Shown one piece after another: positions 2,490 to 56,310 of a stretch of DNA of 64,000 nt (positions within the stretch are counted from its first letter, which is position 1; each line of letters opens with the position of its first letter). The stretch covers positions 227,974,001 to 228,038,000 of the forward strand of contig OZ024740.1 of assembly GCA_964016885.1 (NCBI GenBank), read 5' to 3'. The stretch is from Eledone cirrhosa. Lineage: Eukaryota. Position numbers and translations under genes: made by a program. The notes under the pieces were generated by a model. That model had not been told where the DNA came from. It searched no databases and saw only the letters and a program-made list of their open reading frames with translations.

Positions 2490-5400
2490 TCACGCTAGTG
2501 AAACATGGAAAAGAGATACCAGCTGGTCTGAAAACACTGTACCCACAACAACTGACACTAAAAAAACTGAAAAAACTCTGGGAAACTAAATCAGAACAAC
2601 CTGCCATCCCAGCACATAATCATAGACTGGAATCAAGGTACAAATTGTTGTCCTTGAATGCACATAGTCTATCCAATTAGATACATCTTTTTGACGTCAA
2701 ACGTATCGACCCTGATTTCATTACAGTCACGGAAACATGGGCACATTCCCTACTCTGTGATGGGGTTTTCAGCATAACTGGCTACAACTTGTTTCGTAAA
2801 GACCACATTAATCATCGTGGTGGTAGTGTAATGGTCTACGTTCAGTCAAATTTTTCAGCAATTCCTTGTGTTGATTTGAACCAATCGCAGCAAGAAGTAT
2901 TTTTCTGTGATATACGTATGACCATGTCAACACTGCTACTTGCAGTCATTTACCGTCCCCCAAATTACCATCAGGACACTCAACTTTGTGATATCCTGAG
3001 AGTTGCTGCCAGGAAAACAGTCACTTATGTCTTTATTACAGGGGACTTCAATCACCCTGAGATTGAGTGGGAAACCTTTCGTTGGCCGCAAAAATGCAAA
3101 TGACTTCCTTGAGCTAGTGCTGGACTCGAACAGGTCACAAGTAGTCACCTCACCAACAAGAGGTGACAACACTTTGGATCTACTCTTCATCGCTACTCCT
3201 GAAACAGTTATTAGTGTTACTACTGAGGAACCTTTAGGTGACTCTGATCATGCTATGATCATTGCCAATCTATCTCTCATGGGCAGTAACAAAAACCACA
3301 ACCATCTCCAAACTGCTCACTTTGACTAGAATAAAGTAGACTGGAACTGTTACTGCACCGAGCTGCAATGTCCAAACTGGCTTGAGTTCTACGACTACGA
3401 CTCTGGAGATGTCAACACTGTACTCCAGAACATCCTGAACTCAATATGGACAGCATGTGCAGCATCGGTGCCACGTAAGTAGAAAAAACATCCCAAAAGT
3501 GCAATTTGGGAGACTGCAGCAGTCTGTCTTGCCAGAAACGAATGTCGTAATGCTGAACGGGAATACAAACTGTGTAAATCAGATATCAATAGGAAAAAGC
3601 GAAATAAATCATCCAACCATCTCAAACAGGTGACAAAAAAGGCAGTGCTTCAATTTGAGCAGTGCATAGCAACCAGCCCTGACAGTAAGGTGTTCTGGAA
3701 ATATGTTCACTCAAAGCAGAGGCCTCACTCTCCAGTTGGTCCTCTTCACAATCCCCACACAAGCCAGGTTACTGACGACCCCAAGGAATGCGCAGAACTC
3801 ATTGCTGAATGCTATGCAGGCATTTTCACTATTGAAGACCAGAGTGTACCGTCTCCACCACCTCTGACATCGGATTCTATTTCAACTATGAAATTTACAC
3901 CTGCAATGATGCGATGTCACCTTAAAAATAAAAGCAACTGTGCCTCTCCTGGTCTTGATGGTGTTATGTACCTGCTTCTCAAACGTGGTGGGTACTTCCT
4001 TCTGCACCAGCTATCACGCTTCTTCCAATTCTGTCTGAACAATGGTGCTACTCCAGAGCAGTGAAAAACTGCCAGTGTCATTCCTCTGTTCAAAAAGGGT
4101 GACCGCACATCACCTGTGAACTATCGTCCAGTCAGTCTTACTAGCTGCATTGCCAAACTGATGGAATCCTGTGTCAGATAAATGCTTTTGAACTTCTGGA
4201 ACTCTCACAGTTTTATCCAGCCCTCACAATTTGGATTTATCCCTATCTCTAGCTGCTGTGATCAACTTATAGAGTTTTTTGAAGACATCACTCTGAGGTT
4301 GTGTCTGGTCAGAAGTTGTTTTTTCTTTGGTACTTAAAATAGGAGTGGTACACCACGATTCTTTATTATTTGTAGTGCTGATGGCAGAGGAAGGACTAGG
4401 TTCTCGAGATTCCTCAAAAGAAAAGAAAAAAGTAATTAGAGTGAGTGTATGTGGGGGATATATATATATATATAACAACATATATTGACTAGATAGAGAG
4501 AGTGAGAAAAAGAAAGAAACTGAGTGACTTGAAAGGTAAGACATCATCATCATTATCGTCATCACTGTTTAATGTCTATTTTTCCAAGCTTGCATGGGTT
4601 AGATGGGTCATCCACGTTATGAGACAAGTCTGGTCAGTTGGACACACCGTACCTTGCTCAAATGGAATTGTATTAGAGAAACACTTTGGAACATCTGGAA
4701 TTCTCAGTCTTATCCGGGCCCCCACAATTTGGATTTATCCCTAACTCCAGCTGCTGTGATCAACTTATCGAGTTTCTTGAAGATGTTACCCGAATCGCTA
4801 ATGATGTCTCATGGGTAGATGTTGCTTATCTTGACTTTGTTAAAGCTTTTAATTCTGTGCCACACAAAAGACTTATGGCAAAACTATCTGCAATGAGTGT
4901 GAAGGATGATCTTTTCAATTGGTTCAAGTCCTTTATTCTCAGTTGAAGAGAGGTAGTCATGGTTCTAGGACAGCATTCTTCACCGTATGAGATATCATCT
5001 GATGTACCACAGGGATCTGTTCTTGGTCCCCTTTTGTTTGTGGCATATATTAATGACATAGATGCCAACTTAAAGAATGCCACAGTTCTGAAATATGCAG
5101 ATGACATCAAGCTGTACCTTGAAATAAAAAGATCTTTCTTGCAATCTGACCTGGACACAAGGCAACAATGGATCACAGACTGGCAACTCAAGCTGGCTGT
5201 GGACAAATGCACCACTATGCATTTTGGGAGTAAAAACCCAGCGTCCTCATACTCCCTCCACAACACTAATATCAAGACGTCTTCTTGTGAACGTTACCTG
5301 GGCATTACGGTCAGCAGCGATTTGCGTTGGACGAAGCACGTCTCTAAAATTGTCAAGAAGGCCGAGGGTATCTTAGCATCACTCAGCAAGACCTTTGTCA

Positions 5401-6021
5401 GCCTCTCTCCAGCAATCTATTTAAAGCTTAATATCGCTATGGTACGACCACACTTAGAATTTGCATCACCAGTCTGGAACCCCTATCTTGCTCAGAACAT
5501 TGACCACCTGGAAACTGTTCAGAGACGTGCAACCAAGCGAATACTCTCCATCAGGCATCTACCATACTCTGAATGCCTTGCTTTCCTGGGCATGGATACA
5601 TTGAAGCTCTGACATCTGGCAACTGACTTGGTAAACACCCACAAAATCATTAACCATCTTGCCAACAACAACCCTGAGTACCTTTTTGATTTCCATGTGT
5701 CTAAAACACGGCATGCCCACAAAGTCAGAAAACAGCACAGCTCCCATGACTTTCAGAAACATTTTTTCACGCTCAGAGTTGCTGAAGCATGGAACAAACT
5801 ACCTGCATCAGTTGTTAGCTGTCGAGACACTGCATCCTTTAAAACCTCCATGCTTCCTGAGATTCACCAACACTACACCTAATATTCCCCCTCCATACAC
5901 ACGCACACATGTATTTCATGACTCGTACACTATTCACTTCCCTGACATTAGTATATTATTCTATGTACTATACATGCACCTTTGATGAGTTGTATTGCAC
6001 CTGAGCACTGTACACGATAAT

Positions 6022-6052
<31 letters not shown>
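2490..6052 (+). mobile_element. Decayed CR1/L2-group LINE ORF2 (APE endonuclease plus RT) with (ATT)n tail, interrupted at about 4291-4680 by foreign sequence
   Basis: APE motifs VTETW, YRPP, GDFN, SDH; RT motifs YLDFVKAF, VPQGSVLGP, YADD, VRPHLEFASPVWNP; many stops and frameshifts. Confidence 0.92.
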
Positions 6053-16330: not shown

Positions 16331-16965
16331 TACCAAAGTAGCCTTCATCTCTTTCTTGAGACCCCCCCCCCCCCCACACACACACTTAATATTATCCATC
16401 TGGATTTCCGATTTTATTTCTAATTTTTATTTTTGGTTGTCTTACTCCATAGGCATCTTTGCATATTGTATAAACAATGTTTCCAAATGCGGCTAGCTTG
16501 TATTAAAGGGTGAGGTTGTCAAGCAGAAGCGAAAATGTAAAAAGTGGAATTGTTTTGTTGAAAAGCGAAACGCTTCAAAATGAACCTAGACTAGAAAAAA
16601 ATACTTCAACAACTATTTCTATTCCGAAAAGTACATTTTTCATTCGAGAACATTAATAAGTCTTCTTAAAACTTTAAACATATTTAATAAAAAACTTAAA
16701 CCCAGACAAACAAATCATTTAGTTAAAACGAAGCCTGACAGATTTTGTTTTTAATTTCCATTATTTGCTGCTGAACTATTAGATATAAATTAAATTACTT
16801 TTTTAGTTATCATAACTCAGTTTTACTTAAATAAAATATATACGAATTATTTTATTTTAAATAGTTGTATTTATCTGCATGTTAAAATAGGTTTTAGTTA
16901 AGTATTAAATTTTTTATATTTATATTCGCTCCTTGTATGTTTATGTTCTGTTTAGTTGTTCAGAC

Positions 16966-20100: not shown

Positions 20101-23100
20101 TTCCAACTACAAACTGGGTTATAATCATTTTGATATGATCCTCTATTTCTAATTATATTTCCTCTGTTTGGATAGTATTTCTTTCTCTATTGTAGTTTTA
20201 TTTTACACATGTTCAAAACATTGTTTTATTACAGGCATGTGCATGGGGCTGGTATGTTTTTAACTGTCTTTTCTGTTATGTTTTCCAAACATGAGCACTG
20301 AGTGAATTTTGTATTTGGTATAAACTTTTGGCTTCTTGAGTTGATGAAGGGGTGTTGTGGAATTGATGTGGTTTTGAAGAACAAAACCCCAAAAAACTAG
20401 TGATTATTAAAGGACCCAGAACTTCATAAAAGTCTTTAAAATTGCTACAGCATGGCCAAATAATGCTTAAGAGATTTGCTTTGCAATCTTGAGGCTCCAG
20501 GTTTGATCCCATTACATGACATCTTGGGCAAGTTTATTTACTATAACCTTGGGTTGACCCAAGCCTTGTGAGTGAAATTAGGTAAATAGAGATTGTTTGG
20601 AATCCCATTCAGTGAATTGTACCTGTAATTCGAAGGACATGTCTTGTCAAACAAGAACCACAGTAATAAATTGTATTGAAATTCCATAATTAGTTACAAA
20701 ATTTAACAGTAGTTATGTCACTATAATAAAGTAATTATCATAAAGCAAGATTTATGTTGACAAATTTTATTACTTGAAATTTTCTTTCAAACAGTTTTTA
20801 AAAGTCAAATATAATCTTATCTTAGGCCAAAGGTCCTAAGGCCTTCTACAGGAGCCAGACTGAAAGTTCATTCAGAGGATAACTTTTTGAATAGTTTTTC
20901 ATATAGTCTGTGGTTTATATTTATATAAACCATATATATGCAGATACACTTGCCTTCATGCTATTAATTCTTATTATCTTCACCCTGTAAAGTGGTCATG
21001 CGGGTGACATGACAAAAAGTTCCCAGTCAACCATGTAAAGTGGTTGTACTGGTGGCCCAATAAAAAGCGCCCAGTCCACCCTGTAAGGTGGTCATGCTGG
21101 TGCCACGACGAAAAAAACCCCACCTTGTTAGATGGTCATTTTGGTGCCAAGATAAAAAGCACCCAGTCCCCACTGTAATGTGGTTAGTGTTAGGAAGGGC
21201 ATCCATGTCTCATAATGTGACAACCCGTTTAACCCATGCAAGCATGGAAAATGAATGTTAAACACTGATGATGATGATATCTCACTTGTAACCTGTCATT
21301 TAAAATAAAGAACAGCTGGTTGCTTTTTTAGTCACTATAAATCATGTTTATATATTGTGTTATGTTGAAAGAAAATTGCCAACGTTTCTAGATATAATTT
21401 TCATTATCGTATGTCTGTTTTTCATACTGACAGAGGTTGGGCAGATCGTTATGGTCTGAGTCAGTTTTTACTTGGAGTTACTACCTTTCTAGATGGATTT
21501 GAAGGCCATATCTTGCATGTATGTTCCATTTTGGCATGGCTTCTGGAGCATGCTGCACTTCTTAACACCAATCACTTTACAGAGTCTATTGGAAGTATTT
21601 TATTGTGGCAGCAGCACTAGTGAAGTTGTCTTGTATCATGTAAGACCAAAGAGTATTTAGGCTGGGAGTAATAGAAGAGAGACAGTGCTGAAGGGTGTAA
21701 TGAGAGAGAGAGGCAGTGCTGGAAGGTGTAATGAGAGAGGCAGTGCTGGAGGGTGTAATGAGAGAGAGGCAGTGCTTGGAGGGTGTAATGAGAGAGAGAG
21801 GCAGTGCTGGAGGGTGTAATGAGAGAGAGAAACAGTGCTTGAGGGTATAATGAGAGAGAGGCAGTGCTGGAGGGTGTCATGAGAGAGAGGCAGTGCTGGA
21901 AGGTGTAATGAGAGAGGCAGTGCTGGAGGGTGTCATGAGAGAGAGAAACAGTGCTGGAGGGTGTAATGAGAGAGAGGCAGTGCTGGAGGGTGTAATGAAA
22001 GAGAGGCAGTGCTGGAGGGTGTAATGAGAGAGAGAAACAGTGCTGGAGGGTGTCATGAGAGAGAGACAGTGTTGGAGGGTGTAATGAAAGAGAGGCAGTG
22101 CTTGGAGGGTGTAATGAGAGAGATAAACAGTGCTGGAGGGTGTCATGAGAGAGAGACAGTGTTGGAGGGTGTAATGAAAGAGAGACAGTGTTGGAGGGTG
22201 TAATGAGAGAGACTGATAGAGAGTGTCATGAGAGAGAGAGGCAGTGCTGAAGGGTGTAATGAGAGAGACAGTGATGGAAGGTGTCATGAGAGAGAGAGAG
22301 ACAGTGCTGGAGGGTGTCATGAGAGAGAGAAACAGTGCTGGAGGGTGTAATGAGAGAGAGGCAGTGCTGGAGGGTGTAATGAGAGAGAGAAACAGTGCTT
22401 GAGGGTATAATGAGAGAGAGGCAGTGCTGGAGGGTGTAATGAGAGAGAGACAGTGTTGGAGGGTGTCATGAGAGAGAGACAGTGTTGGAGGGTGTAATGA
22501 AAGAGAGGCAGTGCTTGGAGGGTGTAATGAGAGAGAGAAACAGTGCTGGAGGGTGTCATGAGAGAGAGACAGTGTTGGAGGGTGTAATGAAAGAGAGACA
22601 GTGTTGGAGGGTGTAATGAGAGAGACTGATAGAGAGTGTCATGAGAGAGAGAGGCAGTGCTGAAGGGTGTAATGAGAGAGACAGTGATGGAAGGTGTCAT
22701 GAGAGAGAGAGAGACAGTGCTGGAGGGTGTCATGAGAGAGAGAGAGACAGTGCTGGAGGGTGTAATTAGAGAGAGAGACAGTGATGGAGGGTGTCATGAG
22801 AAAGAGAGACAGTGCTGGAGGGTGTCATGGAAAAGAGACTTTGTTGGAGGGTGTCATGAGAGAGAGACAGTGCTGGAGGGTGTCATGAGAGAGACAGTGA
22901 TGGAGGGTGTAATGGAAAAGAGACAATGATAGCAGGGATCATAAATATTTCTGGAGATAGGGTGTTGCAGGAGAAGTAATAGATGATATATAGTGTTAGA
23001 GGGAGTAATTAAAGAGAGACGGTAATAGTAGTTACATGTTTGCTAGTGAAAGAAAGAGAGAGAGAGTGAGAATAAGAGAAGGTTACAGTGGATAGGAGGC

Positions 23101-28596: not shown

Positions 28597-31500
28597 TTAA
28601 AACAGAAAACAAAAACAATAACGAAGAGTGCAGTACAAAGTGTTAGTATTAGGTTTTCACGCTTGAGAGTGGGGGTGGGGGACGACGTTTCGGGCATAAG
28701 CCCTTCATCAGGAGAAAAGTGGGAAAGAAAAGAGTTCCAAGGGTGTGTGGGGGTGGGGGTGGAAATATATTAAAAGGGGGGGGGAAGAAGGTAAGGAAAA
28801 AAATGAAACAAGTGGTGAAGGGGTGTGGGGGTGGGTGGATGGAGAGGGGGGGACTGTGCGGGCACAAGGGAGGGGGGTAACCTCTCCGGATGAAATGGCT
28901 GACCAAAGACAGGGCTTGAGTCTCGAAGTCAGCATCTCGGCTGCAGAGGTGGCGGATTCAGAGGAGTAGGGAATGCAGTGTTTGGTGTGTGTAGGGTGGG
29001 AGGAGGTGATGTCGAGCTAGGAGTCGGTGGGTTTGAAGAAGGCGGAGGGAATGGTGGGAGGGGTCGATGGCACCGAAGTGGACATGGGTGGTGGAGATAG
29101 AGGTGGTGAAGTGGAGGGAGGGGTGGAAGGAGCAGAAGAAGGAGAGAAAAGGTCCGAGCTGTTCTCGGGTGAGGGTCGTGGCTCTGATGCAGTTGTCTAC
29201 CGTACAGTTCGGGCGTGGGGCCGGTGTTTGGGCAAAGATTTGAGCCTCAATATGGCCAACGAAAAGGTTGGCATAGTTGGGGCCCATTCTTGTGCCCATG
29301 GCTACCCCAGTGACCTGCTGGTAAAACTCATCCGAGAAAGAGAAGCAGTTAAGGGTGAGGACCAGCTCAGTGAGGCGTAGGAGGGTGGGGGTGGAGAGGC
29401 GATGGTCGAGGTAGTGCCGAAGGGCGCGTGGCAGATGACGGTATAAAGTGACTTAATGTCTAGGTATTGGAAGGGATATATTAGGTTAACACTTGATATA
29501 GTAGGAAGAGGGTCCTAACATTTTGGACGCTAGTCCTTAATCAGAAGAACGAATGAGAAATAAGATAGATTGAGGAGATGGGCAGGCTGGAATTGGAAAA
29601 AATGTCTTTAGATAAAAATAACAGGTCCACTCATGTTGACATCTCTTGCAAAACTGTTGGTGCTGGCGTTTTATGTATGATTTATTTTTTAGAAAAGTGG
29701 ATGATGGAGCGCGTCTACCTGAAATGGGAAAAAAAACGTTTTGTAAAAAGAGCTATACTTGTGCACAAGCGTTAGCATGTGTGTGTGTGTGTTATTATAC
29801 GTCCGTACAAGCTTATATATATATACACATATTTGGAAAAAGAGAAGAATAGTTGGTATGCTTTGATAATCCAATGTTTTACGACAAATCATTTTTGTTA
29901 TTAGTCCTTGTTAACTTCAATGGGGAACTTTCTCACATTCAGCAGCAATTGTCAAACTGGTCTGTCACTCTGATACCAACAAGTAGTGAAGTCCTTTTTT
30001 TATTTTCAAATATATCATACTGTACCATTTTCCATTATGTATATATATATATTTGATGATGATGATGATGATGAGTACATAAATATAGTGCCAGGAAATG
30101 CCAGTAGAAGGAAGTCGCAGTAGAGTTAGACAAAGGAAGATCTTAGCAGAGGTGGTGAGAAGTGATCTCATATCGCTGAAACTCACAGAGGAGATAACGA
30201 AGGACCGCAACAAGTGGAGAGATGTTGTGCTAAGAAGAACCCATGGAAACGTGGAAAAGCAGACGTATAAATGATGATGATATATATCTATATATAAATG
30301 TTTTCTGTCTCTAATACTTAGACACCTCAATAAAAGGATAAAATATTTTAATAAACTATTAACTCAGAGAAGTAATTAAACATTATAAACTTAAGCCAAA
30401 ATCTCTATTTGACAGGGATATAAGCTTGACTGACTACAATAAGTCAGTTTTACTTATATATTTTTACGATTATTTACTTATATATTTTTACGATTTTTAC
30501 GAAATCGAGATTTTGCCTTGAAGTTTATTATATATATATCAAAATGAAGTAACGGAGTCAGAAGCTCACATTAGTCCCTGTAATTCATGAGCTTAAAGGA
30601 AAAAGAATCCTGGGCTCTTCAAATATAATATACATACATACATATTTCTATTAATATGTTGACTGGAGGCACATGGCTTAGTGGTTAGAGCATTGGCCTT
30701 GCAATCGAAAGGTTGTGAGTTCAATTCTCAGACCAGGTGATGTGTTGTTTCCTTGAGCAAGACACTTTATTTCACATTGCTCCAGTTTACTCAGCTGTAG
30801 AAATGAGATGATAGGACTGGGGTCTATATCATTCCACTGCAAAGTGGTCGTGGAGGTGCCACAGCAAAAAAGCACCCAGCACTCCCTGTAAATGAGGTTG
30901 GCGTTAGGAAGGGCATCCAGCTGTAGAAATCAAGCCAGAATCAGTTCCCGTCCCACCCTTGCAAGCAGGGAAAAAGCAGACGTAAAATGATGATGATGAT
31001 GATGACGATTTGTCCATTACCAATAGTTTTGTTAGATGTAAATACACATTTACAAGTCTTTAGATGTATTCTGAATAAGTCATATTAATCAGATCACACC
31101 TGAATGATTAATAGACATAAAAGCAACAGAGAGGATGAATTTTGTATATTATGATATCTTTTCATTGATTTGCCCCTTTTTTTCTTGTATATTATAGGTT
31201 GGTCTTGCATCTCTGTTTAATGCAATGAAACTCTATGATACTGCTTACCATTCCCTAGGTATTCACTTAAGATCTGTTTGTCGTGTAAGTATTTATCTCT
31301 GATATTCTGAGATTTCTTTTGTTAAACATTATATATTTTCTAGTTAATTCTTACAGTTTTATCAAGATTATATCAATTCAGTTGTTAAACTTTAATAACA
31401 TTTATAGCTCTTTATTTTTAACATGGTTGGCATTAGGAAGGGCATCCAGCTGTAGAAACCAAGTCAAAATACAGATCTGTATGAGCATGACATGGTCTCT

Positions 31501-34959: not shown

Positions 34960-37900
34960 TATATGTGTGTAGATATCTGAGTTGTGTCAGGGGGTAACTA
35001 CAGTTAAAAAAGGTACTCAGTCTATTGGTAGAATATAGGATCTTTATTAGCATAGGTTAGTCGTTAGTGACATCTCAGTAAGCAAGAGAAAGAATGAGAC
35101 ATACAGGAAGGTGTGGAAAAGAAAGGTCTGGAAGCTAAAAGATCTTTCATTAAAATATGAATTTAGCAAAGCCCTTCAAGATGTGTACAACATAGATGAT
35201 AACTGGAATTTCTTGCGTGACAACTTACTGCAGGCTACTGAAGAAAATTGTGGTTGGGGCAGAGCTTCAACCAGACAGAGAGTGACCTGGTTGTGGAACA
35301 GCACGGTAGATAGGGCCATTAGAGACAAAAGACTGGCATAGAAAGCTTGGAAAATGGTGGGAGTAGAGACGGATACACAGCCACTAAGAGAGAAGCTAGA
35401 CGTCAGGTGTACTTAGCACGCAGGGAGGCTGAGAGTAGGAGGTTTGCCAATGTTCTGCGATGGGAAGATCAGAGACGTGCGGTGTTCCACATTGCAAGGC
35501 AGTGTGTCAGTGCGAATCAGGATGTTGTTGGAGATAAGTGTGTCCGGAATGATGCCGGTGTACTTAGTGTCACGAATGATCAAAAGAAGGAGGCCTGGAA
35601 ATGTCATTATGAGAGACTGATGAATGTAGAGAACGAATGGGACAGAGAGAAATTACCCCCAGTAGACCCGACGCAGGAACCAGCTATTGAGATTGACGAC
35701 TATAGAGTACAAGAGGCAATTAAGGAAATGAAGAATGGTAAGGCTGCTGGACCATCGGGGATAGTTACTGAGATGCTGAAGGCATCAGAAGTAGGCACTA
35801 AACTAGTTGCACACATCATTAATTAAGCTATATATGGTGGTGTCATACCCAAAGACTGGTGCAGCAGTATTCTCATAAATTGCTACAAAGGTAAAAGGGA
35901 TGCTCTAGAGAGGAGTAATTATAGGGGCATAAAGCTGATGAATCAGGTTATGAAAGTGGCAGAGAGAATATTAGCGCAACTGATTAGAGAAAGGGTCAAT
36001 TTAGATGAGATGCAGTTTGGTTTTGTGCCTCAGAAAAGTACAACAGATGCCCTCTTCTTAGTGAGGCAACTACAAGAAGAATAAGCCACTATACTTAGCT
36101 TTTGTTGACCTAGAGAAGGCCTTTGATAGGGTACCCCGATCTGTCATCTGGTGGTCCCTAAGGAAACTAGGTGTAGAGGAATGGTTTGTGAGGACTGCAA
36201 GCTATGTATAGGGGTGCTGTCAGTAAAGTGAGAATAGGAATAGAGTTTAGTGAGGAATTCCAGATACAAGTAGGTGTACATCAAGGTTTGGTCCTCAACC
36301 CACTCTTGTTCATTATAGTCCTCCAAGCCATAACAGAGGAGTTTAAGACTGGATGCCCATGGAAACTTCTCTATGCTGATGATCTGGTTCTTATAGCAGA
36401 ATCAGTAGCGGAGCTAGAGAATAAATTCCAGCTATGGAAACAGCAGTTGGAATCAAGAGGCCTGAGAGTGAACATAGCTAAAACAAAAGTGTTGATAAGT
36501 AGAAGAGAGGACAATACTCTAATTCCATCAGGGAAATGGCCATGTTCGATATGTAGGAAACTGGCATAAATTCCATAAAATGTACGAAATGTAGATCTTG
36601 GGTAAACACGAGATGTAATGGGATAGCAGGCAAACTAACAGGTAGGGAAAACTACGTATGCAGTAGATGTACAGGGAAAGTTGGCAGTATTAATCTCTGT
36701 GATAGACTCATTTTTCCAATGCAGGTGGGTTCTTTAGAAGTGGTTGGTAGCTCCCGGTACCTAGGTGATCAGGTTAGCATGGGAGGGGGGTGTTCCGAGG
36801 CCATAGTATCTAGAATAAGGACGGGTTGGAAGAAGTTTAGGGAGCTGCTTCCTCTGTTGACAAAGAAGGGTTTCTCCCTGTGTATGAAAGGACAGTTATA
36901 TGATCCCTGTGTGAGATGCGCGATGCTGCATGGTAGTGAGACATGGGCAGCAACTGCAGAAGATATGCGACGGCTGGAGAGAAATGAAGCAAGTATGCTC
37001 CATTGGATGTGCAATGTCAATGTGCGTGAATGACCAAGTATAGACGAGTTGAGAAAGAAACTGGGTATAAGAGGGATAAGTTGTGGTGTGCAGGAGAGAA
37101 GGCTGAGATGGTATGGACATGTGATGCACATGGAGGATGACCGCTGGGTGAAGAAGTGCCAGGAAGTCTCAGTGGAGGGAAGACGCAGTAGAGATAGACC
37201 ACGAAAAACATGGGTGGAGGTGGTGAGAGCAGACCTCAGATCGCTGAAATTCACAAAGGACCGTGACAAGTGGAGAGATAGCTGTGCTGAATAGGACCCG
37301 TCCAACCCTTGCAAGCAGGGAAAAGCGGACGTAAAATAATGATGATGATGATAATGATCATCACCGTTTTATGTCCGTTCTTCCACGCTAGCATGGGTTA
37401 GACGGGTTGTCTTGCTGATACAGGAACTGATTCTGGCTTGATTTCTACAGCTGAATGCCCTTCCTAATACCAACCTCATTTACAGTGAGTGCTGGGTACT
37501 TTTTTGATTCCTCTTATGCTCAGTCTCTCTCTCAATTCATTTATGCTTTGCCGTTCGCGTATATTACTATTACACATCCATCGGAGCATGCAAACTTTCT
37601 TTCTTTCTAATCTGAGCAAGTCTTCTACAGACAGCACCCAGGTCTCACTACCATGTAACATTGCTGTTTGTATACATGCATCATACAGTCTGCCTTTCAT
37701 TTTAAGGGAAAACCCTTTTGCAGCTAGCACTAGCTCCCTGAACTTCTTCCATCCCGTTCTTACCCTAGTTATTGTACTTTCCGAACACCAACCTCCGCTG
37801 CTAATTTGGTCACCAGGACTAGTTTCATTCATATGAAATCATCAGGAATGTCCCTGATGATTTCATACGAATGTCTAACCCATGCTAGAGTGGAAGATAG

Positions 37901-46248: not shown

Positions 46249-46347
46249 ATAAAAAAAGTTAGCATCTTTTTTTGAAAGTCCTAAAGTTGTAAAATTTCTT
46301 AATTATAAATACTGTTTTTTTTTTGTATGTATGTATAGATGAATAAA
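46248..46347 (+). terminator. Candidate PIGT polyadenylation signals (AATAAA at 46248 and 46342)
   Basis: Hexamers immediately after the stop; AT-rich context makes them non-specific. Confidence 0.35.
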
Positions 46348-46373
46348 AAAAAAAAAAAAAAATTAATTACCTT

Positions 46374-46493
46374 TTAAAATTTTCTATGAAAACAAAAATT
46401 TATAAAAATAATAAAAAAAAATTTAATTTCTCTCTTTATTTTATGTGTGGATTTGGTTGATAAATCAGTCTTCTTGTCATTGATATCAAAATT
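46374..46493 (-). CDS. Uncharacterised gene, probable terminal coding exon (NFDINDKKTDLSTKSTHKIKREIKFFFIIFINFCFHRKF*)
   Basis: cttccacag acceptor in phase 0 matching exon C; TAA at 46376-46374. Confidence 0.55.
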   Translation of the reverse strand, partial: NFDINDKKTDLSTKSTHKIKREIKFFFIIFINFCFHRKF

Positions 46494-46627
46494 CTGTGGA
46501 AGATAAAATAACAACAGTTTAAATATAAAAAAGTGTGGGAAACATTTAGTCCCTTTATTTACTGTATTTCTAATAAAATACACTGCCTAAGATTTTGAGG
46601 GAATTTAGTAATATAATTTTCTCATTA

Positions 46628-46780
46628 TTAGCCCTTTAGCATTTAAACCAGCCATATCTGGCTAGAATTCTCTCAATAAATAATATCAAAATCTTGTAGA
46701 GTTGATATTATGAGAGATAAAAGCCTATACTGTGAAAATACAATACTAAATATAGAATAATGTAAATGCTAAAGGGTTAA
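46628..46780. mobile_element. piggyBac-like MITE
   Basis: TIRs ccctttagcattta / taaatgctaaaggg, TTAA on the right and TTAG on the left. Confidence 0.7.
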
Positions 46781-47744
46781 GGTGGTGTTTGGAACATAAT
46801 TTAACAAAAGTTCTTACATAAGTTTCTTATATTTGATAAATATAATCACTAGGAATATAAACAAGTCTGCATTCCACAGCATTTTTTAAATTTACTCTTT
46901 AACATTCATGAAATAAATATATTTTAATGTAATATTTATCTAAAAATGGTCATGCTGGTGACATGACATAAAGCACCCAGTTCACCCTGTAAGGTGGTTG
47001 TGCTGGTGACATGACATAAAGCACCCAGTTCACCCTGTAAGGTGGTTGTGCTGGTGACATGACAAAAAGCATCCAGCCCACCAAGTAGATGGACATGCTG
47101 GTGACATGACAAAAAAGTACCCAGTTCACTCTGTAAGGTGGTCATGCTGGTGACATGACAAAAAGTACCCAGTTCACTCTGTAAGGTGGTCATGCTGGTA
47201 CCACGGTAAAAAAAGTACCCAGTCAAGTCTGTAAGGTGGTTGTGTAGGTGATATGACAAAAAGCATGCAGTCCACCCTGTTAGATAGTCATTTAGGTGCC
47301 ATGATAAACAGCACCCAGTCCGTGTAATGTGGTTGGTATTAGGAAAGGCATTCAGCTGTAGAAACCAGATTAGTTCCATATGAGCAAGACACAGTCATCT
47401 GACCTTGTCTCATAATGTGACAACCTGTCTAACTTAAGTACGATCAATATATATATATATAAAACAATCTTACCTCATTCCTGAATACTTTAATAATACT
47501 GATGTCTTTATTTGGATGTTAAATCACTGCAAGTATTGTTTGTGTCAATGTTGAAAGGATTACCACAGTAAAATATCTGTAGAAATTGTAATTAATATAA
47601 ATAAATTACAAATATACTTAATACTCTTATGAAATATGTAAAGTATCATGTGATTAGAAAATAGCAGTGGAATTTGAAAATTGAATTGAATTAATAACTT
47701 TGCTGTATTTTTCTTTTACTATAGAAAATAGTCTACTACTACTA

Positions 47745-48816: not shown

Positions 48817-48923
48817 CTGTGCAGATTCTGATCCTGGTGGACATACAACATTAAAATTATCGTTGGAATCAGAACTATCAGATAAGGACTGAAAAATATC
48901 TGATTCAACGGAGACAGTTGGAT
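48817..48923 (-). CDS. Uncharacterised gene, exon C (DPTVSVESDIFQSLSDSSDSNDNFNVVCPPGSESAQ)
   Basis: tttacag acceptor, CAG|gtaaat donor, phases 1/0, open, same Ser/Asp-rich composition as exon B. Confidence 0.75.
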
Positions 48924-50861
48924 CTGTAAATTAGTAAAGTAAGGAGTCTGAGAAAATCACATAGAGAATTACTGATTAACATGTCCACACTGTAAAGTGG
49001 TCGAGTAGGTGTCACAACAAAAGCACCCAGCAGACACGGTAAATGTGGTTGGCGTTAGGAAGGGCATCCAGCCGTAAAAACCAAGCCCAAATCAATTCTG
49101 TGTGAGTAAAACAGTCTTCCGACTTGGATCTCTCACAACGGGACAGCCCGTCCTACCCATGCTGGCGTGGAAAATGGACATTAAACGATGGTGATCATAA
49201 AGTTATAGTGCAGGTGTCATGATAAAATACACTCTGTACAGTTGTAGTGCAAGGTGTCATAAAACACACTCAATACACTTTGTACAGTTGTAGTGTTGAT
49301 GAAAATCACTACAGTCTGTAAAGAAGTAGTGCTGATGTAAAAAAACATCCAGTACACTCTGTAAAGTTGTAGTGCTGATGCCATGATAAAATGTACTCAG
49401 TACACTCTGTAAAGCTACAGTGCTGGTGCCATGATAAAAACATGTTACTCTCTGTAAAGTTGTAGTGCTGATGTCATGATAAAAACATGTTATACTCTGT
49501 AAAGTTGTAGGGCTGGTGTTGGCACTGCATTAAGTCCTTTTAAGGCTCTTAGTACTTAAAGGTTTATGGTGCCTCCCATATATAAAGTCTGCAAAAAAGA
49601 AAATTTTTTGATATGACAAATATATTTAATTTGAATAAAATGCTGTTCCTCTCCTTCTTTTAATGCCCTAAACATTAGTTCTTATTTTGCTTAAAGGTCT
49701 GACTGGTATCATGATAAAAAAAAACACCCAATAGACTGTATAGTGTAGCATTGGGAAATATATCCAACCATAGAAATCATGTTAAAATATGGAATGTATA
49801 AGCAAGACATGGTCTCTCTGATCCAGCTTGTCTCAGAACTTGACAACCCTTCCAACTCATGCCAGCATAGAAAGCAGACATTAAATGATGATATATACAT
49901 ATATATATATATACAAACATACACACACATATCATCATCACCATTTAACGTCCATTTTTTTCCATGCTAGCATGGGCTAGACGAGTTGTCCCATTGTGAG
50001 ACAAGCCAGATCAGGTAACCATGTCTTGCTCAAACAGAACTGTTTCTGGTTAAGTTTCTACAACTGGATGCCCTTCCTAATGCCAACTACATTTACAGTG
50101 TGGACTGAGTGCTTTTTATCGTGAAACCTACATAACTACTTAACAGTGTGAAATACACATATATGTTGTTGGATTTCCATTGGTTCCAACACTGAGTGTT
50201 CCAGTTTTTCAAACAATGAAACAACCTGCTCCTTAAATTAATGTGCAAGTGGCTGAGCATTCTATAGACATGTCTATCCCTAATCTAATTCTCAGGAGGC
50301 TGAATCTCACAAAGGAAAGAGACAAGTGGAGGGAAACTAGGCTAGACAGAACTCGTCATGCCTCATCATCACCACCACTATTCCTTCTCATCACCATTAC
50401 CCCTTCCTCTTTCTCACCCCCACCACCCTCCTCCTCACTGCCATCATCATCATCTTCACCACCACCATCATCACCATTTTAAGCTTATTCTTCCATGCTA
50501 GCATGGGTTGGACAGGCCCTTTCAGCACAGCATCTCTCCACTCATCACAATCTTTCATCATCTTTACTGTGAGCTTCAGAAATTTGAGATCAGCTCTCAC
50601 AACCTTTGCCCATGTTTTCCTTAGTCTACCTCTACTGCAGCATCCTTCCACTGGGATTTCTTGGCATTTCTTCATGCATCGATTATCCTCCACATGCATC
50701 ACATGCCCATAGAAAAACACACAAAGAAATGATGATGATGATCACCACCACCACCACCACCACCACCACATTAATCATTTTTAAATTGGGCAATTTTATT
50801 TTAAAGACCCATGGCAGTATCTCAGACAATGTGAAAAGGAGGTAAAGAGTAGAATACTTAC

Positions 50862-51207
50862 CACTGTAATGACAAGAATCATTATTGCTATTGAAACAAT
50901 TCCGAAATTTTTTTCTAGCTGAAATGTTTTCTATTTGATCTTCATGAGATGAATCTGATTCAAAGGAATTGTTTTCAATGGAGTTTGATTTAACAATTTT
51001 GGGTAATTTACACACACACAGGGATTTGGGGTAATTCTCTTCGAAATTATTTTCCAAAGGCAGCTCTGAATGTCTTTGAATATCTGGTTCCAAATTTAAT
51101 ACATTGATTTCTGGAACTATTGTTGATGTTATCTCTTCATTGCAAGATTGGTATTCTTCATTATTTGGAGTGCTGATGGCAGGGGAAGGACTAGATTCTC
51201 GAGATTC
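50862..51207 (-). CDS. Uncharacterised gene, exon B (ESRESSPSPAISTPNNEEYQSC...NDSCHYSG)
   Basis: 346 nt open within ORF 50683-51276; gtaagt donor; exits in phase 1, matching the next exon. Confidence 0.75.
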
Positions 51208-52030
51208 CTCAAATGAAAACAATACAAAAATTAGAGTGAGTGCATGTGGAATAGATATATAAATATAGATCAACATTTATGATTTCTTACATAGGCCAAA
51301 GGCCAGAAATTGTGCGTGTGTATGCATGTGGTGGTGGTAATAGCAGCAGCATTGGTAGTAGTTGTAGTATTAGTATTAGTAGTAGAAATGGTAGTCGAAA
51401 ACCTGTTGATTGTGTTGCACAAGAATGGACGTTAAACAATGATGACGATGATTCACTTGATACTCTACTGATTCTACCACTCCAACATTATTAAAAACTT
51501 CAATAATAATAATAATGATTTCTTACATAGGCCAAAGCCCAGAAATTGCGCATGTGTGTGTTGGGTGGCAGAGCTCAGTTGGTTATGACAACACCAATAC
51601 AAGACTGGTACTTTATTTTATCAATTCTGGAAGAATGATAAGCAAAGTAAACCAAGGCAGTTTTTCAACTTGGACTGTAAAGGACAATAACGAAATATTG
51701 CAAGCTATTTCGTTTGATGCTCTAACAATTCTTTCAAACCAATCTAACAAATTATAATAATAATGATTTCTGATTTAGGTATAAGGTCAACAATTTTGGG
51801 GAAGAGAATATTGATTAAATCAACCCCAGTATGTTACTGGTAATTTATTTTATCAACTCTGTAAGGATGAAAGGCAAAGCTAATCTTGGCAAGATTTGAA
51901 CTCAGAACCTAAAGAGTCGTAACTAAACACTGTAAGGTTTTCAGTAGTAGTAGTGGTGGTGGTGGTAATAGCAGCAGCATTAGTTGTAGTTGTAGTATTA
52001 GTATTAGTAGTAGTAATGGTAGTCCAAAAC

Positions 52031-52189
52031 CTGTTGATTGTGTTGCACAAGATATTGATAAAAAGTCTGAGGTTGTGTCTGGTCAGAAGAAGTTGTTTTT
52101 TCTTTGGTACTTAAAATAGGAGTGGTACACCACGATTCTTCATTATTTGTAGTGCTGATGGCAGAGGAAGGACTAGGTTCTCGAGATTC
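52031..52189 (-). CDS. Uncharacterised gene, chimeric duplicated exon copy 2 (ESREPSPSSAISTTNNEESWCTTPILSTKEKTTSSDQTQPQTFYQYLVQHNQQ)
   Basis: 159 nt, phase 0/0, open, same splice sites as copy 1. Confidence 0.6.
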
Positions 52190-52527
52190 CTCAAATGAAA
52201 AGAAAAAAGTAATTAGAGTGAGTGTATGTGGGGGATATATATATATATATAACAACATATATTAACTAGATAGAGAGAGTGAGAAAAAGAAAGAAACTGA
52301 GTGACTTGAAAGGTAAGACATCATCATCATTATCTTCATCACTGTTTAATGTCTATTTTTCCAAGTTGCATGGGTTAGATGGGTCATCCATGTTATGAGA
52401 CAAGTCTGGTCAGGTGGACACACCGTACCTTGCTCAAATGGAATTGTATTACCTTATATAATAAATAGTTAAGTAGATGACAGAGGATAATGTGTTATAA
52501 TATATATATATATGTATTATAATGTAT

Positions 52528-52558
<31 letters not shown>

Positions 52559-53970
52559 ATTCTTTTATTAATATATTTCTAATGAAAAACACTGGCTATA
52601 ATTTTTTAAGTGTTTTGAAAATTATCAAGAATATTACTAAATCAGGGAATTAGTAATATAACAATTTCTTATTATTAAATGGATTGGTTGTATTGGTTGA
52701 GTGTCAGACAGAGTACTTTGTGGCATTTGTTATGTTTTTAGTTCAAATCCTGCCGAGGTCAACTTTGCTTTCATCTCAGTCACTTACTGGAGTCGATGTA
52801 TTTGACTTCCCCCTTCCCACAAAATGGTGGCATTGTTAGATAATTATAAACAGGTTGTTAGATAATTATATACACTTTAAAATATAATTTTGGTGGATAG
52901 GTCTAGTATCTGACTGCTATTTTATTTCATCATTCATGGAAGGATGCAAAGCATATTTAAACCTGTTAGCAGTAAAACTTGGAGCATAAAGAAAGGCATC
53001 CAGATGTAGAAACGAAGCCCTGTATGAACAAGATATGGTCATTAGATCTGGCTTGTCTCACAACAGGACAACTTGTCTAACCCATGCTAGCATGGAAGAA
53101 TGGACTTTAAACAATGATGACGATGATTCATTTGATACTCTACTGATTCTACCCCTCCAACATTATAAAAACTTCAATAATAATAATAATTGTTTCTACT
53201 TTAGGCACAAGGCCAGCAATAACCAAGTACATTACTGGTATTTTATTTTGATTTCTTACATAGGCCAAAGGCCAGAAATTGTGCATGTGTGTGTTGGGTG
53301 GCAGAGCTCAGTTGGTTATGACAACACCAATACAAGACTGGTACTTTATTCTATCAATTCTGGAAGAATGATAAGCAAAGTAAACCAAGGCAGTTTTTCA
53401 ACTTGGACTGTAAAGGACAATAACGAAATATTGCAAGCTATTTCGTTTGATGCTCTAACAATTCTTTCAAACCAATCTAACAAATTATAATAATAATTGT
53501 TTCTACTTTTGGCACAAGGCCAGCAACTACCCAGTGTATTACTGGTACTTTATTTTATCGACCCCGTAAGGATGAAAGGCAAAGTTAACCTTGGCGGGAT
53601 TTGAACTCAGAATGGCAATGGCAGTAACTCTATGCGTCAAAGCATGGCGTCCAACCCTCTACCGATACTGCCAATCCCCCGCCTTATTATAATAATAATG
53701 ATTTCTGATTTAGGTACAAGGTCAACAATTTTGGGAGGAGAATATTGATTAAATCAACCCCAGTATGTTACTGGTAATTTATTTTATCAACTCTGTAAGG
53801 ATGAACGGCAAAGCTAATCTTGGCAAGATTTGAACTCAGAACGTAAAGAGTCGTAACTAAACACTGTAAGGTTTTCAGTAGTAGTAGTGGTGGTGGTGGT
53901 AATAGCAGCAGCATTAGTTGTAGTTGTAGTATTAGTATTAGTATTAGTAGTAGTAATGGTAGTCCAAAAC

Positions 53971-54129
53971 CTGTTGATTGTGTTGCACAAGATATTGATC
54001 AACACTCTGAGGCTGTGTCGGGTCAGAAGAAGTTGTTTTTTCTTTGGTACTTAAAATAGGAGTGGTACACCACGATTCTTCATTATTTGTAGTGCTGATG
54101 GCAGAGGAAGGACTAGGTTCTCGAGATTC
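53971..54129 (-). CDS. Uncharacterised gene, chimeric duplicated exon copy 1 (ESREPSPSSAISTTNNEESWCTTPILSTKEKTTSSDPTQPQSVDQYLVQHNQQ)
   Basis: 159 nt, phase 0/0, open; branch-like ctaat plus tttgag acceptor; CAG|gtttt donor. Confidence 0.6.
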
Positions 54130-54389
54130 CTCAAATGAAAAGAAAAAAGTAATTAGAGTGAGTGTATGTGGGGGATATATATATATATAACAACATATAT
54201 TGACTAGATAGAGAGAGTGAGAAAAAGAAAGAAACTGAGTGACTTGAAAGGTAAGACATCATCATCATTATCTTCATCACTGTTTAATGTCTATTTTTCC
54301 AAGCTTGCATGGGTTAGATCGGTCATCCACGTTATGAGACAAGCCTGGTCAGTTGGACACACCGTACCTTGCTCAAATGGAATTGTATT

Positions 54390-55675
54390 AGAGAAACACT
54401 TTGGAACATCTGGAATTCTCAGTCTTATCCGGGCCCCCACAATTTGGATTTATCCCTAACTCCAGCTGGTGTGATCAACTTATCGAGTTTCTTGAAGATG
54501 TTACCCGAATCGCTAATGATGGCTCATGGGTAGATGTTGCTTATCTTGACTTTGTTAAAGCTTTTAATTCTGTGCCACACAAAAGACTTATGGCAAAACT
54601 ATCTGCAATGAGTGTGAAGGATGATCTTTTCAATTGGTTCAAGTCCTTTATTCTCAGTTGAAGAGAGGTAGTCATGGTTCTAGGACAGCATTCTTCACCG
54701 TATGAGATGTCATCTGATGTACCACAGGGATCTGTTCTTGGTCCCCTTTTGTTTGTTACATAGATGTCAACTTAAAAAATGCCACAGTTCTGAAATATGC
54801 AGATGACATCAAGCTGTACGTTGAGATAAAAAGGACAGATCCTGAACACTGGATCTTTCCTGCAATCTGACCTGGAAACAATGCAACAATCGATCACGGA
54901 CTGGCAACTCAAGATGGCTGTGGACAAATGCACCACAATGCATTTTGGGAGGAAAAACCCAGCATCCACATACTCCCTACACAACACTAATATCAAAATG
55001 TCTTCTTGTCAGCAGCAATTTGCGTTGGATAAAGAACTTCTCTAAAATTGTCAAGAAGGTCAAGGGTGTCTTAGCATCACCCAGCAAGACCTTTGTCAGC
55101 CGCTCTCCGCTATCTATTTAAAGCTCTATATAGCCATAGTATGGCCACACTTAGAATTTGCATCACCAGTCTGGAACCTCTATCTTGCTCAGAACATTGA
55201 CCTCCTGGAAACTGTTCAGAGACGTGCAACCAAGCGATTACCCTCCATCAGGCATCTACCATACTCTGAACACCTTGCTTCCCTGGGCATAGATACATTG
55301 AAGCTCTGACATTTGGCAACTGACATGGTAAACACCCACAAAATTATTAATCATCTTGCCAACAACAACCCTGAGCTCCCATGACTTTCGGAAACATTTT
55401 TTCACGCTCAGAGTTGCTGAAGCATGGAACAATCTACCTGCATCAGTTGTTAGCTGCCAAGACACTGCATCCTTTAAAACCTCCATGCTTCCTGGAATTT
55501 GCCAACACTACACCTGATATCCCCCCTCCATACACATGCACACATGTATATCATGACTCATACACTGTTCACTTTCCTGACATTTGTACATTATTCTATG
55601 TACTATACAAGCACCTTTGATGAGTTATAGTGCTCCTGAGCACTGTACACAATAATTTCATTATTATTATTATTA
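54390..55675 (+). mobile_element. 5'-truncated CR1/L2-group LINE, same family as 2490-6052
   Basis: RT motifs, same 3' UTR and (ATT)n tail; empty site visible in the paralogous intron at about 52450. Confidence 0.92.
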
Positions 55676-56213
55676 TATTATATAATAAATTGTTAAGTAG
55701 ATGACAGGATAATGTGCTTTATCCTAATATATATATAATGGAGGCACATGGCTTAGTGGTTAGAGCATTGGCTTTGCAATCGAAAGGTTGTGAGTTCAAT
55801 TCTCAGACCAGGTGATGTGTTGTTTCCTTGAGCAAGACACTTTATTTCACATTGCTCTAGTTTACTTAGCTGTAGAAATGAGATGATAGGGACCCCAGTC
55901 CCTATCATTCCACTGCAAAGTGGTCGTGTAGGTGCCACGGCAAAAAAAAAAAGCACCCAGCACTCACTGTAAATGAGGTTGGTGTTAGGAAGGGCATCCA
56001 GCTGTAGAAATCAAGCCAGAATCAGTTCCCGTCCCACCCTTGCAAGCAGGGAAAAGCGGACGTAAAATGAAATGATGAATGATGATATATATGTGTAATC
56101 TTTTTATAGTAGTAGTGGTAGTGGTGGTGGTAATAACAACAGCAGTATTAGCATTATTATTCTTAGTAGTAGTAGTGGTAATAGCAGCATTAGTAGTAGT
56201 AGTAGTCCAAAAC

Positions 56214-56310
56214 CTGTTGATTGTGTAGCAAAAGATATTGATCAAAATTCAGTGGTTGTGTCTGGTCAGAAGAAGTTTCTTTGGTACTTAAAATAGGACT
56301 GGAACACCAT
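56214..56310 (-). CDS. Uncharacterised minus-strand gene, exon A (WCSSPILSTKETSSDQTQPLNFDQYLLLHNQQ)
   Basis: ttatag acceptor, CAG|gtttt donor, 97 nt open, exits in phase 0; upstream exons not identified. Confidence 0.65.

What the first reader, a model, noticed from the sequence alone, without database searches (positions are those of the whole stretch)
4288..5040. Exon of a gene 50 kb away captured inside a CR1 LINE
Seen: the CR1 breaks at gaagacatca|ctctgagg (about 4291) into a near-identical copy of about 54005-54755. That copy comprises most of the chimeric exon, its acceptor and intron flank, and the exact 5' junction of the other truncated CR1. Identity to the 54 kb locus falls after about 5040, and CR1 sequence 4185-4290 is repeated at about 4680-4790. 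Short microhomology (cact) marks the left junction. The copy shares some variants with the 52 kb unit and others with the 54 kb unit, so it is not a simple duplicate of either. Inference: a break in one LINE was repaired by one-sided invasion of a sister LINE, copying past its end into host exon sequence, i.e. LINE-homology-driven exon shuffling without retrotransposition.
Basis: partly seen in the sequence, partly recalled or inferred. Interest (0 to 1): 0.7.

Follow-up and report, generated by a model that had tools for sequence, protein, structure and literature searches.

The report
Repair copy inside an old LINE
A 750-base stretch from inside a telomere-protein (TIN2-like) gene was copied 50 kb away into an old LINE retrotransposon, likely when a DNA break was repaired off a sister LINE; it is a clean case of a known repair process, and no new working exon is shown.

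Summary
Window 4292-5040 is a 98.7% copy of 54006-54755 (10 substitutions, 2 small indels). Beyond 5040 the two LINEs differ by 8% (71 substitutions; step p = 6e-11). In the LINE part of the tract, 29 of 31 changes from the family majority are shared with the 54 kb element. Host LINE on both sides is a different old copy. The junction occurs once in the genome, and a read-derived contig bridges it. One end is homologous, one is not: this fits repeat-primed, one-ended copying (DDSA / repair-mediated duplication), a known process.

(1) The microhomology is at most 3 nt (cac) and may post-date the event.
(2) The 'mosaic' of 52 kb and 54 kb variants is explained by private mutations.
(3) The 'exon' is 121 of 159 nt of a chimeric exon-like duplicate inside a TIN2-like gene. 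Its splicing is unproven, the copy lacks its donor, and no host gene was found around it.

It is a DNA-level duplication, not demonstrated exon shuffling.

The parts
2494..4291 (+). Host CR1-like LINE, 5' part (5'-truncated at 2494; decayed ORF2 with APE endonuclease at about 2684-3100)
   Evidence: Family copies run on upstream of 2494; Pfam PF03372; 34 of 751 sites (4.5%) differ from family majority in 3541-4291, nearest copy 6.0%
4289..4291 (+). Left, non-homologous junction; at most 3-nt microhomology (cac) with 54003-54005
   Evidence: Family continues CAC-C; unit B and exon D lack these letters; junction 23-mer occurs once in G000; 88-nt contig 4253-4340 with 0 differences in run X3
4292..4675 (+). 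Copied non-LINE flank of the 54 kb LINE (partial exon-like unit, intron-type flank, SINE fragment)
   Evidence: the unique part matches only 52 kb, 54 kb, 51 kb and 56 kb of this window; the other 27 of 32 matches are short low-complexity hits (30 of 30 candidates scored)
4292..4412 (-). 121 of 159 nt of the chimeric exon-like unit: acceptor kept (AG at 4413-4414), original donor missing; the frame runs into antisense LINE and stops at about 4224
4540..4675 (-). SINE fragment, cut at the same base in the 4 kb, 52 kb and 54 kb units
4676..4790 (+). Second copy of LINE stretch 4177-4291, taken from the 54 kb element's truncated 5' end
   Evidence: 7 shared, 0 A-only, 1 C-only non-majority sites
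4791..5040 (+). Host LINE sequence replaced by the 54 kb element's version (conversion tract, about 250 bp)
   Evidence: 22 shared, 2 A-only, 0 C-only non-majority sites; tree groups the two at 100/100
5041..6050 (+). Host LINE 3' part with (ATT)n tail; own ancestry
   Evidence: 36 of 990 sites (3.6%) from majority, nearest copy 5.1%; against the 54 kb element 8 shared, 22 A-only, 45 C-only, 4 both; RVT_1 at 4950-5609
54003..54755 (+). Donor stretch in unit C
54391..55680 (+). Donor CR1-like LINE, 5'-truncated, older (6.3-8.2% from majority; nearest copy 7.4%)
53971..54129 (-). Unit C: intact 159-nt in-frame chimeric exon-like unit (exon-E-type acceptor and 5' end, exon-D-type 3' part and weak GTTTTG donor)
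   Evidence: splicing not shown; BLASTP to Octopus orthologue not significant (E = 3.5)
51421..52451 (+). Unit B: young paralogue of unit C without the LINE; holds a second 159-nt unit at 52031-52189 (-)
   Evidence: About 1.4% substitutions from C over about 1 kb
56214..56310 (-). Candidate TIN2-like exon D (phase-compatible with the exon at L022, about 80 kb in window numbering, and with exon E)
   Evidence: Splice signals and phase; protein match not significant; inferred
50862..51207 (-). TIN2-like exon E
   Evidence: Collinear tblastn match to P0034, E = 0.14; canonical GTAAGT donor
48817..48923 (-). TIN2-like exon
   Evidence: tblastn to P0034, E = 1.6e-5

Best explanation
The 750-bp tract at 4292-5040 is a DNA copy of the 54 kb LINE's 5' end plus 385 bp of its flank, likely made when a break in the host LINE was repaired by one-ended copying from that sister LINE. 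Shown: the tract has the 54 kb element's ancestry; host sequence on both sides is a different old copy; one end lies inside shared LINE homology and the other is a non-homologous join; 115 bp of LINE is present twice; about 250 bp of host LINE is replaced. Inferred steps: (1) a break or gap near the position equal to 4291; (2) the right-hand end was trimmed or mismatch-corrected to about 5040 and invaded the 92%-identical sister 50 kb away in the same orientation; (3) synthesis ran 365 bp through the sister's truncated 5' end and 385 bp into flank; (4) the new strand was released and joined to the left end with 0-3 nt of microhomology. The copied flank carries a splice acceptor and 121 nt of an exon-like unit of the TIN2-like gene, and is most likely a neutral passenger.
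For: Step in identity, 10 of about 750 against 71 of about 891, p = 6.5e-11, change point 5040. In 4676-5040, 29 of A's 31 non-majority letters are shared with C; beyond 5040, 8 of 34, within the range of other copies (0-9 of 31-36). Tract tree: A+C 100/100, stem 0.076, tips 0.006 and 0.003, with 28 family copies. Host halves 4.5% and 3.6% from majority, tract 8.5%, donor 6.3-8.2%. Left and right flanks of the host align as consecutive parts of one old repeat in 5 of 11 copies above the best of 100 shuffles. The insert and junction occur only here. The junction, including A's private 3-bp deletion, is in a read-derived contig (X3 record 18, 39 nt left and 49 nt right, depth 10). Mechanism class is described in print.
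Against: The break and strand invasion cannot be observed; replication template switching leaves the same product. The right boundary is soft: in 5041-5210 C shares 5 of A's 8 non-majority letters (other copies at most 4; two are rare alleles, 2/52 and 3/52). A constrained tree joining the two 3' parts is not rejected (p-AU 0.78; the free search missed a better tree). The cac letters are found only in C, in a cluster of 5 B/C differences in 21 bp, two of which post-date the copy, so the microhomology may be coincidental. A's private letters at 4364 and 4419 were not seen in the contigs of X1-X3, which showed only the B/C letter (contigs drop variants). X1-X3 are one sample and may be the assembled one. 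No target-site duplication of 5 nt or more was found around the host. No empty allele was available.
Confidence: 0.74

Rival explanations
1. Replication template switching (FoSTeS/MMBIR): a stalled or collapsed fork in the host LINE switched to the sister LINE by homology, copied 750 bp and returned by microhomology, perhaps in the episode that also made unit B.
For: Same product. A, B and C are about equally far apart (A-C 1.3%, A-B 6 substitutions in 385 bp, B-C about 1.4%). B looks like a copy of C that skipped the LINE, so several switches may share a date.
Against: One end has at least 250 bp of homology-directed replacement, typical of strand invasion and conversion (own knowledge). No filler or inverted piece at the junction. 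Similar ages do not show one event.
Confidence: 0.13
2. An old duplication of the whole 54 kb unit (flank plus LINE) to 4.3 kb, later overwritten in part by a recent conversion tract.
For: A3+C3 as one clade is not rejected (p-AU 0.78); 8 shared non-majority letters beyond 5040, 5 of them in the first 170 bp.
Against: C has 45 private substitutions and 13, 23 and 62 bp deletions that A lacks; 0% of 200 bootstrap trees join them; sharing is within the range of unrelated copies; 3' flanks differ right after the tail; the host 5' part 2494-4291 would be left as a tailless fragment in the same orientation; the flanks are collinear.
Confidence: 0.07
3. RNA route: one retrotransposition in which the reverse transcriptase switched from a LINE RNA to a transcript of the 54 kb locus and back (or a 5' transduction).
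For: The host is a non-LTR element, and the tract begins and ends inside LINE sequence.
Against: Host halves are much older than the tract (nearest relatives 5-6% away against 1.3%); single junction copy; unspliced flank with a SINE, antisense to the TIN2-like gene; donor only 50 kb away in a 3.0-Gb genome; no tail or duplication at the insert.
Confidence: 0.04
4. Assembly chimera.
For: A's private letters at 4364 and 4419 are absent from laid contigs; no listed piece spans the whole stretch.
Against: A read-derived contig bridges 4291 with 0 differences. A has its own changes (5 substitutions and a 3-bp deletion) absent from C, and those in the part shared with B are absent from B too, which a mis-join would not create. 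No N in 264 kb around.
Confidence: 0.02

Closest known systems
Duplication-dependent strand annealing (DDSA; Fiston-Lavier et al. 2007, original not held; seen through passages of PMC3276153 and PMC3420103)
   Same: A break inside a repeat is repaired from an ectopic copy of that repeat, duplicating the adjoining sequence; a repeat lies at one end of the duplicate; template jumps at microhomology are a stated signature (cf. unit B lacking the LINE).
   Different: Described in Drosophila for kb-scale duplications; here 385 bp of flank, a cephalopod LINE, and a measurable conversion tract inside the repeat.
Repair-mediated duplications (Pace et al. 2009, PMC2671141; parts 1-3 of 8 and passages read)
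   Same: Short duplicate from the same chromosome sitting inside an old TE, single donor, microhomology of 2-9 nt, no poly(A); donors there included 2 full exons and 4 partial exon/intron pieces.
   Different: 824 of their 1,136 cases had the donor within 5 kb and only 58 farther on the same chromosome; the parts read describe microhomology or filler breakpoints, and the term 'gene conversion' does not occur in the main text. Here one end lies in long LINE-LINE homology at 50 kb.
LINE-LINE gene conversion at an induced break (Tremblay, Jasin, Chartrand 2000; not held, seen as a passage and reference in PMC7407515); one-sided invasion / coupled HR-NHEJ (Richardson and Jasin 2000, title only; rest recalled)
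   Same: A broken LINE takes sequence from a diverged endogenous LINE; one end homologous, one end joined non-homologously.
   Different: Experimental, in mouse cells; this is a germline fossil in a mollusc.
Repetitive-element-mediated ectopic recombination making new genes (Yang et al. 2008, PMC2211543; abstract only)
   Same: Repeats at the ends of DNA-level duplicates of gene parts.
   Different: Most of those duplicates are functional; here no receiving gene or transcript is shown.

Membership tests
DDSA / repeat-primed repair duplication | Same repeat family at acceptor and at one end of the donor | tested here: met
DDSA / repeat-primed repair duplication | Donor left intact, acceptor gains the flank (non-reciprocal) | tested here: met
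   C keeps its flank; A has it between two host parts
DDSA / repeat-primed repair duplication | Identity step inside the repeat marking the copied tract | tested here: met
   a short patchy extension to about 5210 is not excluded
DDSA / repeat-primed repair duplication | Microhomology or filler at the non-homologous end | tested here: inconclusive
   At most 3 nt, in letters private to C
DDSA / repeat-primed repair duplication | Origin at a double-strand break, not a stalled fork | not testable with these tools
   Both give the same sequence
Repair-mediated duplication (Pace 2009) | Insert of 50 bp or more in a TE, single donor, no poly(A) or TSD | tested here: met
   (the B paralogue is a second near match to the non-LINE part)
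Repair-mediated duplication (Pace 2009) | Donor within 5 kb (their confident class) | tested here: not met
   49.7 kb; falls in their 'distant' class
LINE transduction / retrotransposition | Insert of the same age as its carrier, with own tail or several copies | tested here: not met
Exon shuffling | Donor piece is a spliced exon | tested here: inconclusive
   Splice signals and open frame; no significant protein match; no RNA joint obtained
Exon shuffling | Copy lies in, and is spliced into, another gene | tested here: inconclusive
   Original donor site missing; 0 of 89 minus-strand ORFs from -40 kb to 17 kb hit Pfam, a weak test; no RNA evidence
CR1-group LINE | ORF2 with APE endonuclease then RT; 5' truncation; short-repeat 3' tail | tested here: met
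   these features are shared with other LINE clades
CR1-group LINE | Placement in the CR1 clade by RT phylogeny with reference elements | not tested

The most novel reading that the evidence does not exclude
One multi-switch episode, steered by LINE homology, both put two in-frame 53-codon cassette units into the linker of the TIN2-like telomere gene (B and C) and exported a third copy 50 kb away. There the kept acceptor and a GTGA donor-like motif lying exactly at the new junction would define a new exon in an antisense transcript: exon shuffling by LINE homology without retrotransposition, caught within about 1% divergence.
Probability: 0.07. Interest if true: 0.55.

Novelty: new member of a known kind. 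Interest (0 to 1): 0.3.

Why it matters
It is an unusually legible fossil of repeat-primed DNA copying. The diverged sister LINE marks where homology-directed copying began, and the flank marks where it ended. With thousands of such LINE copies in this 3-Gb octopod-like genome (6,623 first-look candidates), the route could move splice sites and gene pieces often, and it also resets the apparent age of parts of a LINE. The process itself is already described in flies and vertebrates, and no functional outcome is shown here.

Tried and rejected
RNA: no listed holder is on record as RNA. Run X4 (kind not on record) held 0.21 of the words of 50800-52500, about the length share of exon E, and had no cover at 4257-4511; this is not evidence on splicing. 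No RNA joints over the donor region were obtained, so use of B, C or D as exons stays open. Mosaic of B and C: rejected as unnecessary (the 4487 site and the TA-repeat indel were not firmly polarised). Word-indexed protein search with P0001 found nothing (8 candidates); the HMMER search did. No TSD around the host. No minus-strand host gene by Pfam (0 of 89 ORFs; plus-strand ORFs and ORFs beyond -40 kb were not scanned). D and C translations do not match the Octopus orthologue significantly. PDB search with the RT part: 0 hits; protein atlas unavailable. Earlier-findings look-ups returned nothing. Literature searches: (octopus, LINE, gene conversion, exon shuffling) listed 4 papers, none on this subject by title or abstract start. 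Three primary papers were not held. No supplements were read.

Full report
Setting. The window is G000:C1:227974001-228038000 of a 3.0-Gb genome. The nearest relatives of its TIN2-like protein are from Octopus bimaculoides and Argonauta hians (64-67% over one exon), so an octopod-like cephalopod is inferred. A PIGT-like gene lies on + (last exon Pfam Gpi16; its start near 16950 is my reading of the translation). A TIN2-like gene lies on -: TINF2_N hit at E = 3e-7, with exons collinear with P0003 and P0034 from about 91 kb (in the neighbouring stretches) down to 47.6 kb. Names used: A = the 4 kb copy, B = the 52 kb unit, C = the 54 kb unit, D and E = candidate exons at 56.2 kb and 51 kb.

Observation. 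A (4292-5040) aligns to 54006-54755 with 10 substitutions and two small indels. From 5041 to the tail there are 71 substitutions in about 891 columns and five indels (p = 6.5e-11; change point 5040, interval 4983-5117). The copy holds 385 bp of non-LINE flank and the exact SINE/LINE boundary of C. LINE 4177-4291 is therefore present twice. The unique part matches only this window, apart from short low-complexity hits (30 of 30 candidates scored), and the junction 23-mer occurs once. In public contigs of one sample, an 88-nt contig spans 4253-4340 with no difference, including A's private 3-bp deletion. Against this: A's private letters at 4364 and 4419 were not seen in those contigs, no listed piece spans the right boundary, and the sample may be the assembled one.

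Ancestry of each part. I compared each part with 55 family loci (29, 24, 2 local; 53 after removing duplicates; chosen for likeness to A's or C's 3' part, so the panel is biased). Differences from the column majority: host 5' part 4.5%, host 3' part 3.6%, tract 8.5%, C 8.2% and 6.3%. In 4676-5040, 29 non-majority letters are shared by A and C, 2 are A-only and 1 is C-only. Beyond 5040, 8 are shared, 22 A-only, 45 C-only and 4 differ in both; other copies share 0-9 of these sites. A tree of the tract joins A and C at 100/100 on a long stem. For the 3' part, 0% of bootstrap trees join them, but a constrained test does not reject the clade (p-AU 0.78) and showed the free search was not optimal. 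In 5041-5210 C shares 5 of A's 8 non-majority letters, one more than any other copy, so a patchy extension or close subfamily kinship is possible. The host is 5'-truncated at 2494. Its two flanks align as consecutive parts of one old repeat in 5 of 11 copies above the best of 100 shuffles, which supports a single original insertion; no TSD was found.

Junction and mosaic claims. Family copies continue CATCAC-C, so the overlap with C is cac, 3 nt. These letters are absent from B and D and sit in a cluster of 5 B/C differences in 21 bp (P = 9e-6 per window at 1.4%, about 49 windows). Two changes in this cluster (54013, 54020) are missing from A, so the cluster formed at least partly after the copy, and the microhomology may be coincidental. 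In 4292-4675, A, B and C have 4, 4 and 5 private changes. At the 7 B/C-discordant sites polarised by D or by 17 SINE copies, A has the ancestral letter, and the order of A=B and A=C sites is random (6 runs in 9, p = 0.79). No mosaic is needed, although a late switch from C to B cannot be excluded.

The 'exon'. B (52031-52189) and C (53971-54129) each hold a 159-nt open unit made of the acceptor and 5' end of exon E and the 3' part and weak GTTTTG donor of candidate exon D. The upstream exon, D and E are already phase-compatible without them, and D fits the unmatched stretch of the Octopus protein by position and length only. B and C may be cassette exons or pseudo-exons; this was not settled. 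A carries the acceptor and 121 nt, lacks the original donor, and reads into a stop in antisense LINE. A GTGA motif follows the junction on the minus strand, which is weak and may be chance. None of 89 minus-strand ORFs between -40 kb and 17 kb hit Pfam, so no receiving gene is evident; this is a weak test.

Mechanism. One end inside long homology with about 250 bp of host replaced, and the other end non-homologous, is the product expected from one-ended, repeat-primed synthesis followed by end joining (inference; confidence 0.74). Fork template switching gives the same product (0.13). Old duplication plus later conversion (0.07), an RNA route (0.04) and mis-assembly (0.02) fit worse, for the reasons given under the rivals.

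Comparison with print. DDSA is defined as SDSA after a break in a repeat, using an ectopic copy of the repeat (passages of PMC3276153 and PMC3420103). Pace et al. found 1,136 single-donor inserts in human TEs, 824 within 5 kb and 58 farther on the same chromosome, with full and partial exons among the donors (PMC2671141, parts 1-3 of 8). A review passage reports non-allelic repair between diverged LINEs in mouse cells (PMC7407515). Yang et al. link repeats to ectopic-recombination duplicates in Drosophila (abstract). One search for a cephalopod case listed nothing on the subject; that does not show absence. Verdict: real, well resolved, a new member of a known kind; exon shuffling not shown; interest 0.3.

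Noticed in passing
window 51421-52451 (B) and 53096-54390 (C): B is only about 1.4% from C, yet lacks C's 1.3-kb LINE, which is 6-8% from its family majority. The SINE is cut at the same base in both, and B resumes in C's post-LINE flank. B is likely a young copy of C that skipped the LINE at a short 'tatta' overlap, not an empty pre-insertion site.
   Followed up: partly
window 52031-52189 and 53971-54129 (-): Two intact in-frame 53-codon exon-like units between candidate exons D and E of the TIN2-like gene; if spliced they would lengthen its low-complexity linker.
   Followed up: partly
window 54000-54020: Five B/C differences in 21 bp against 1.4% elsewhere, exactly at the place where the 4 kb copy begins; unexplained.
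   Followed up: partly
window 51328-51424: A further 97-bp remnant of the D-type 3' part with its donor-like site, 96% identical to 51956-52052, about 120 bp before exon E's acceptor.
   Followed up: no
window 35049-37349 and 59869-61869: Two copies of another LINE family about 90% identical, same orientation, 25 kb apart; not examined for conversion tracts.
   Followed up: no
window 30664-31003 and 55739-56087: A 340-bp composite SINE stretch 93% identical at two places; possibly another local duplication.
   Followed up: no
window 46250-47580: The PIGT-like (+) and TIN2-like (-) genes converge, with coding ends about 1.3 kb apart or less.
   Followed up: no
window 21600-23020: A long tandem array of a short imperfect unit.
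   Followed up: no
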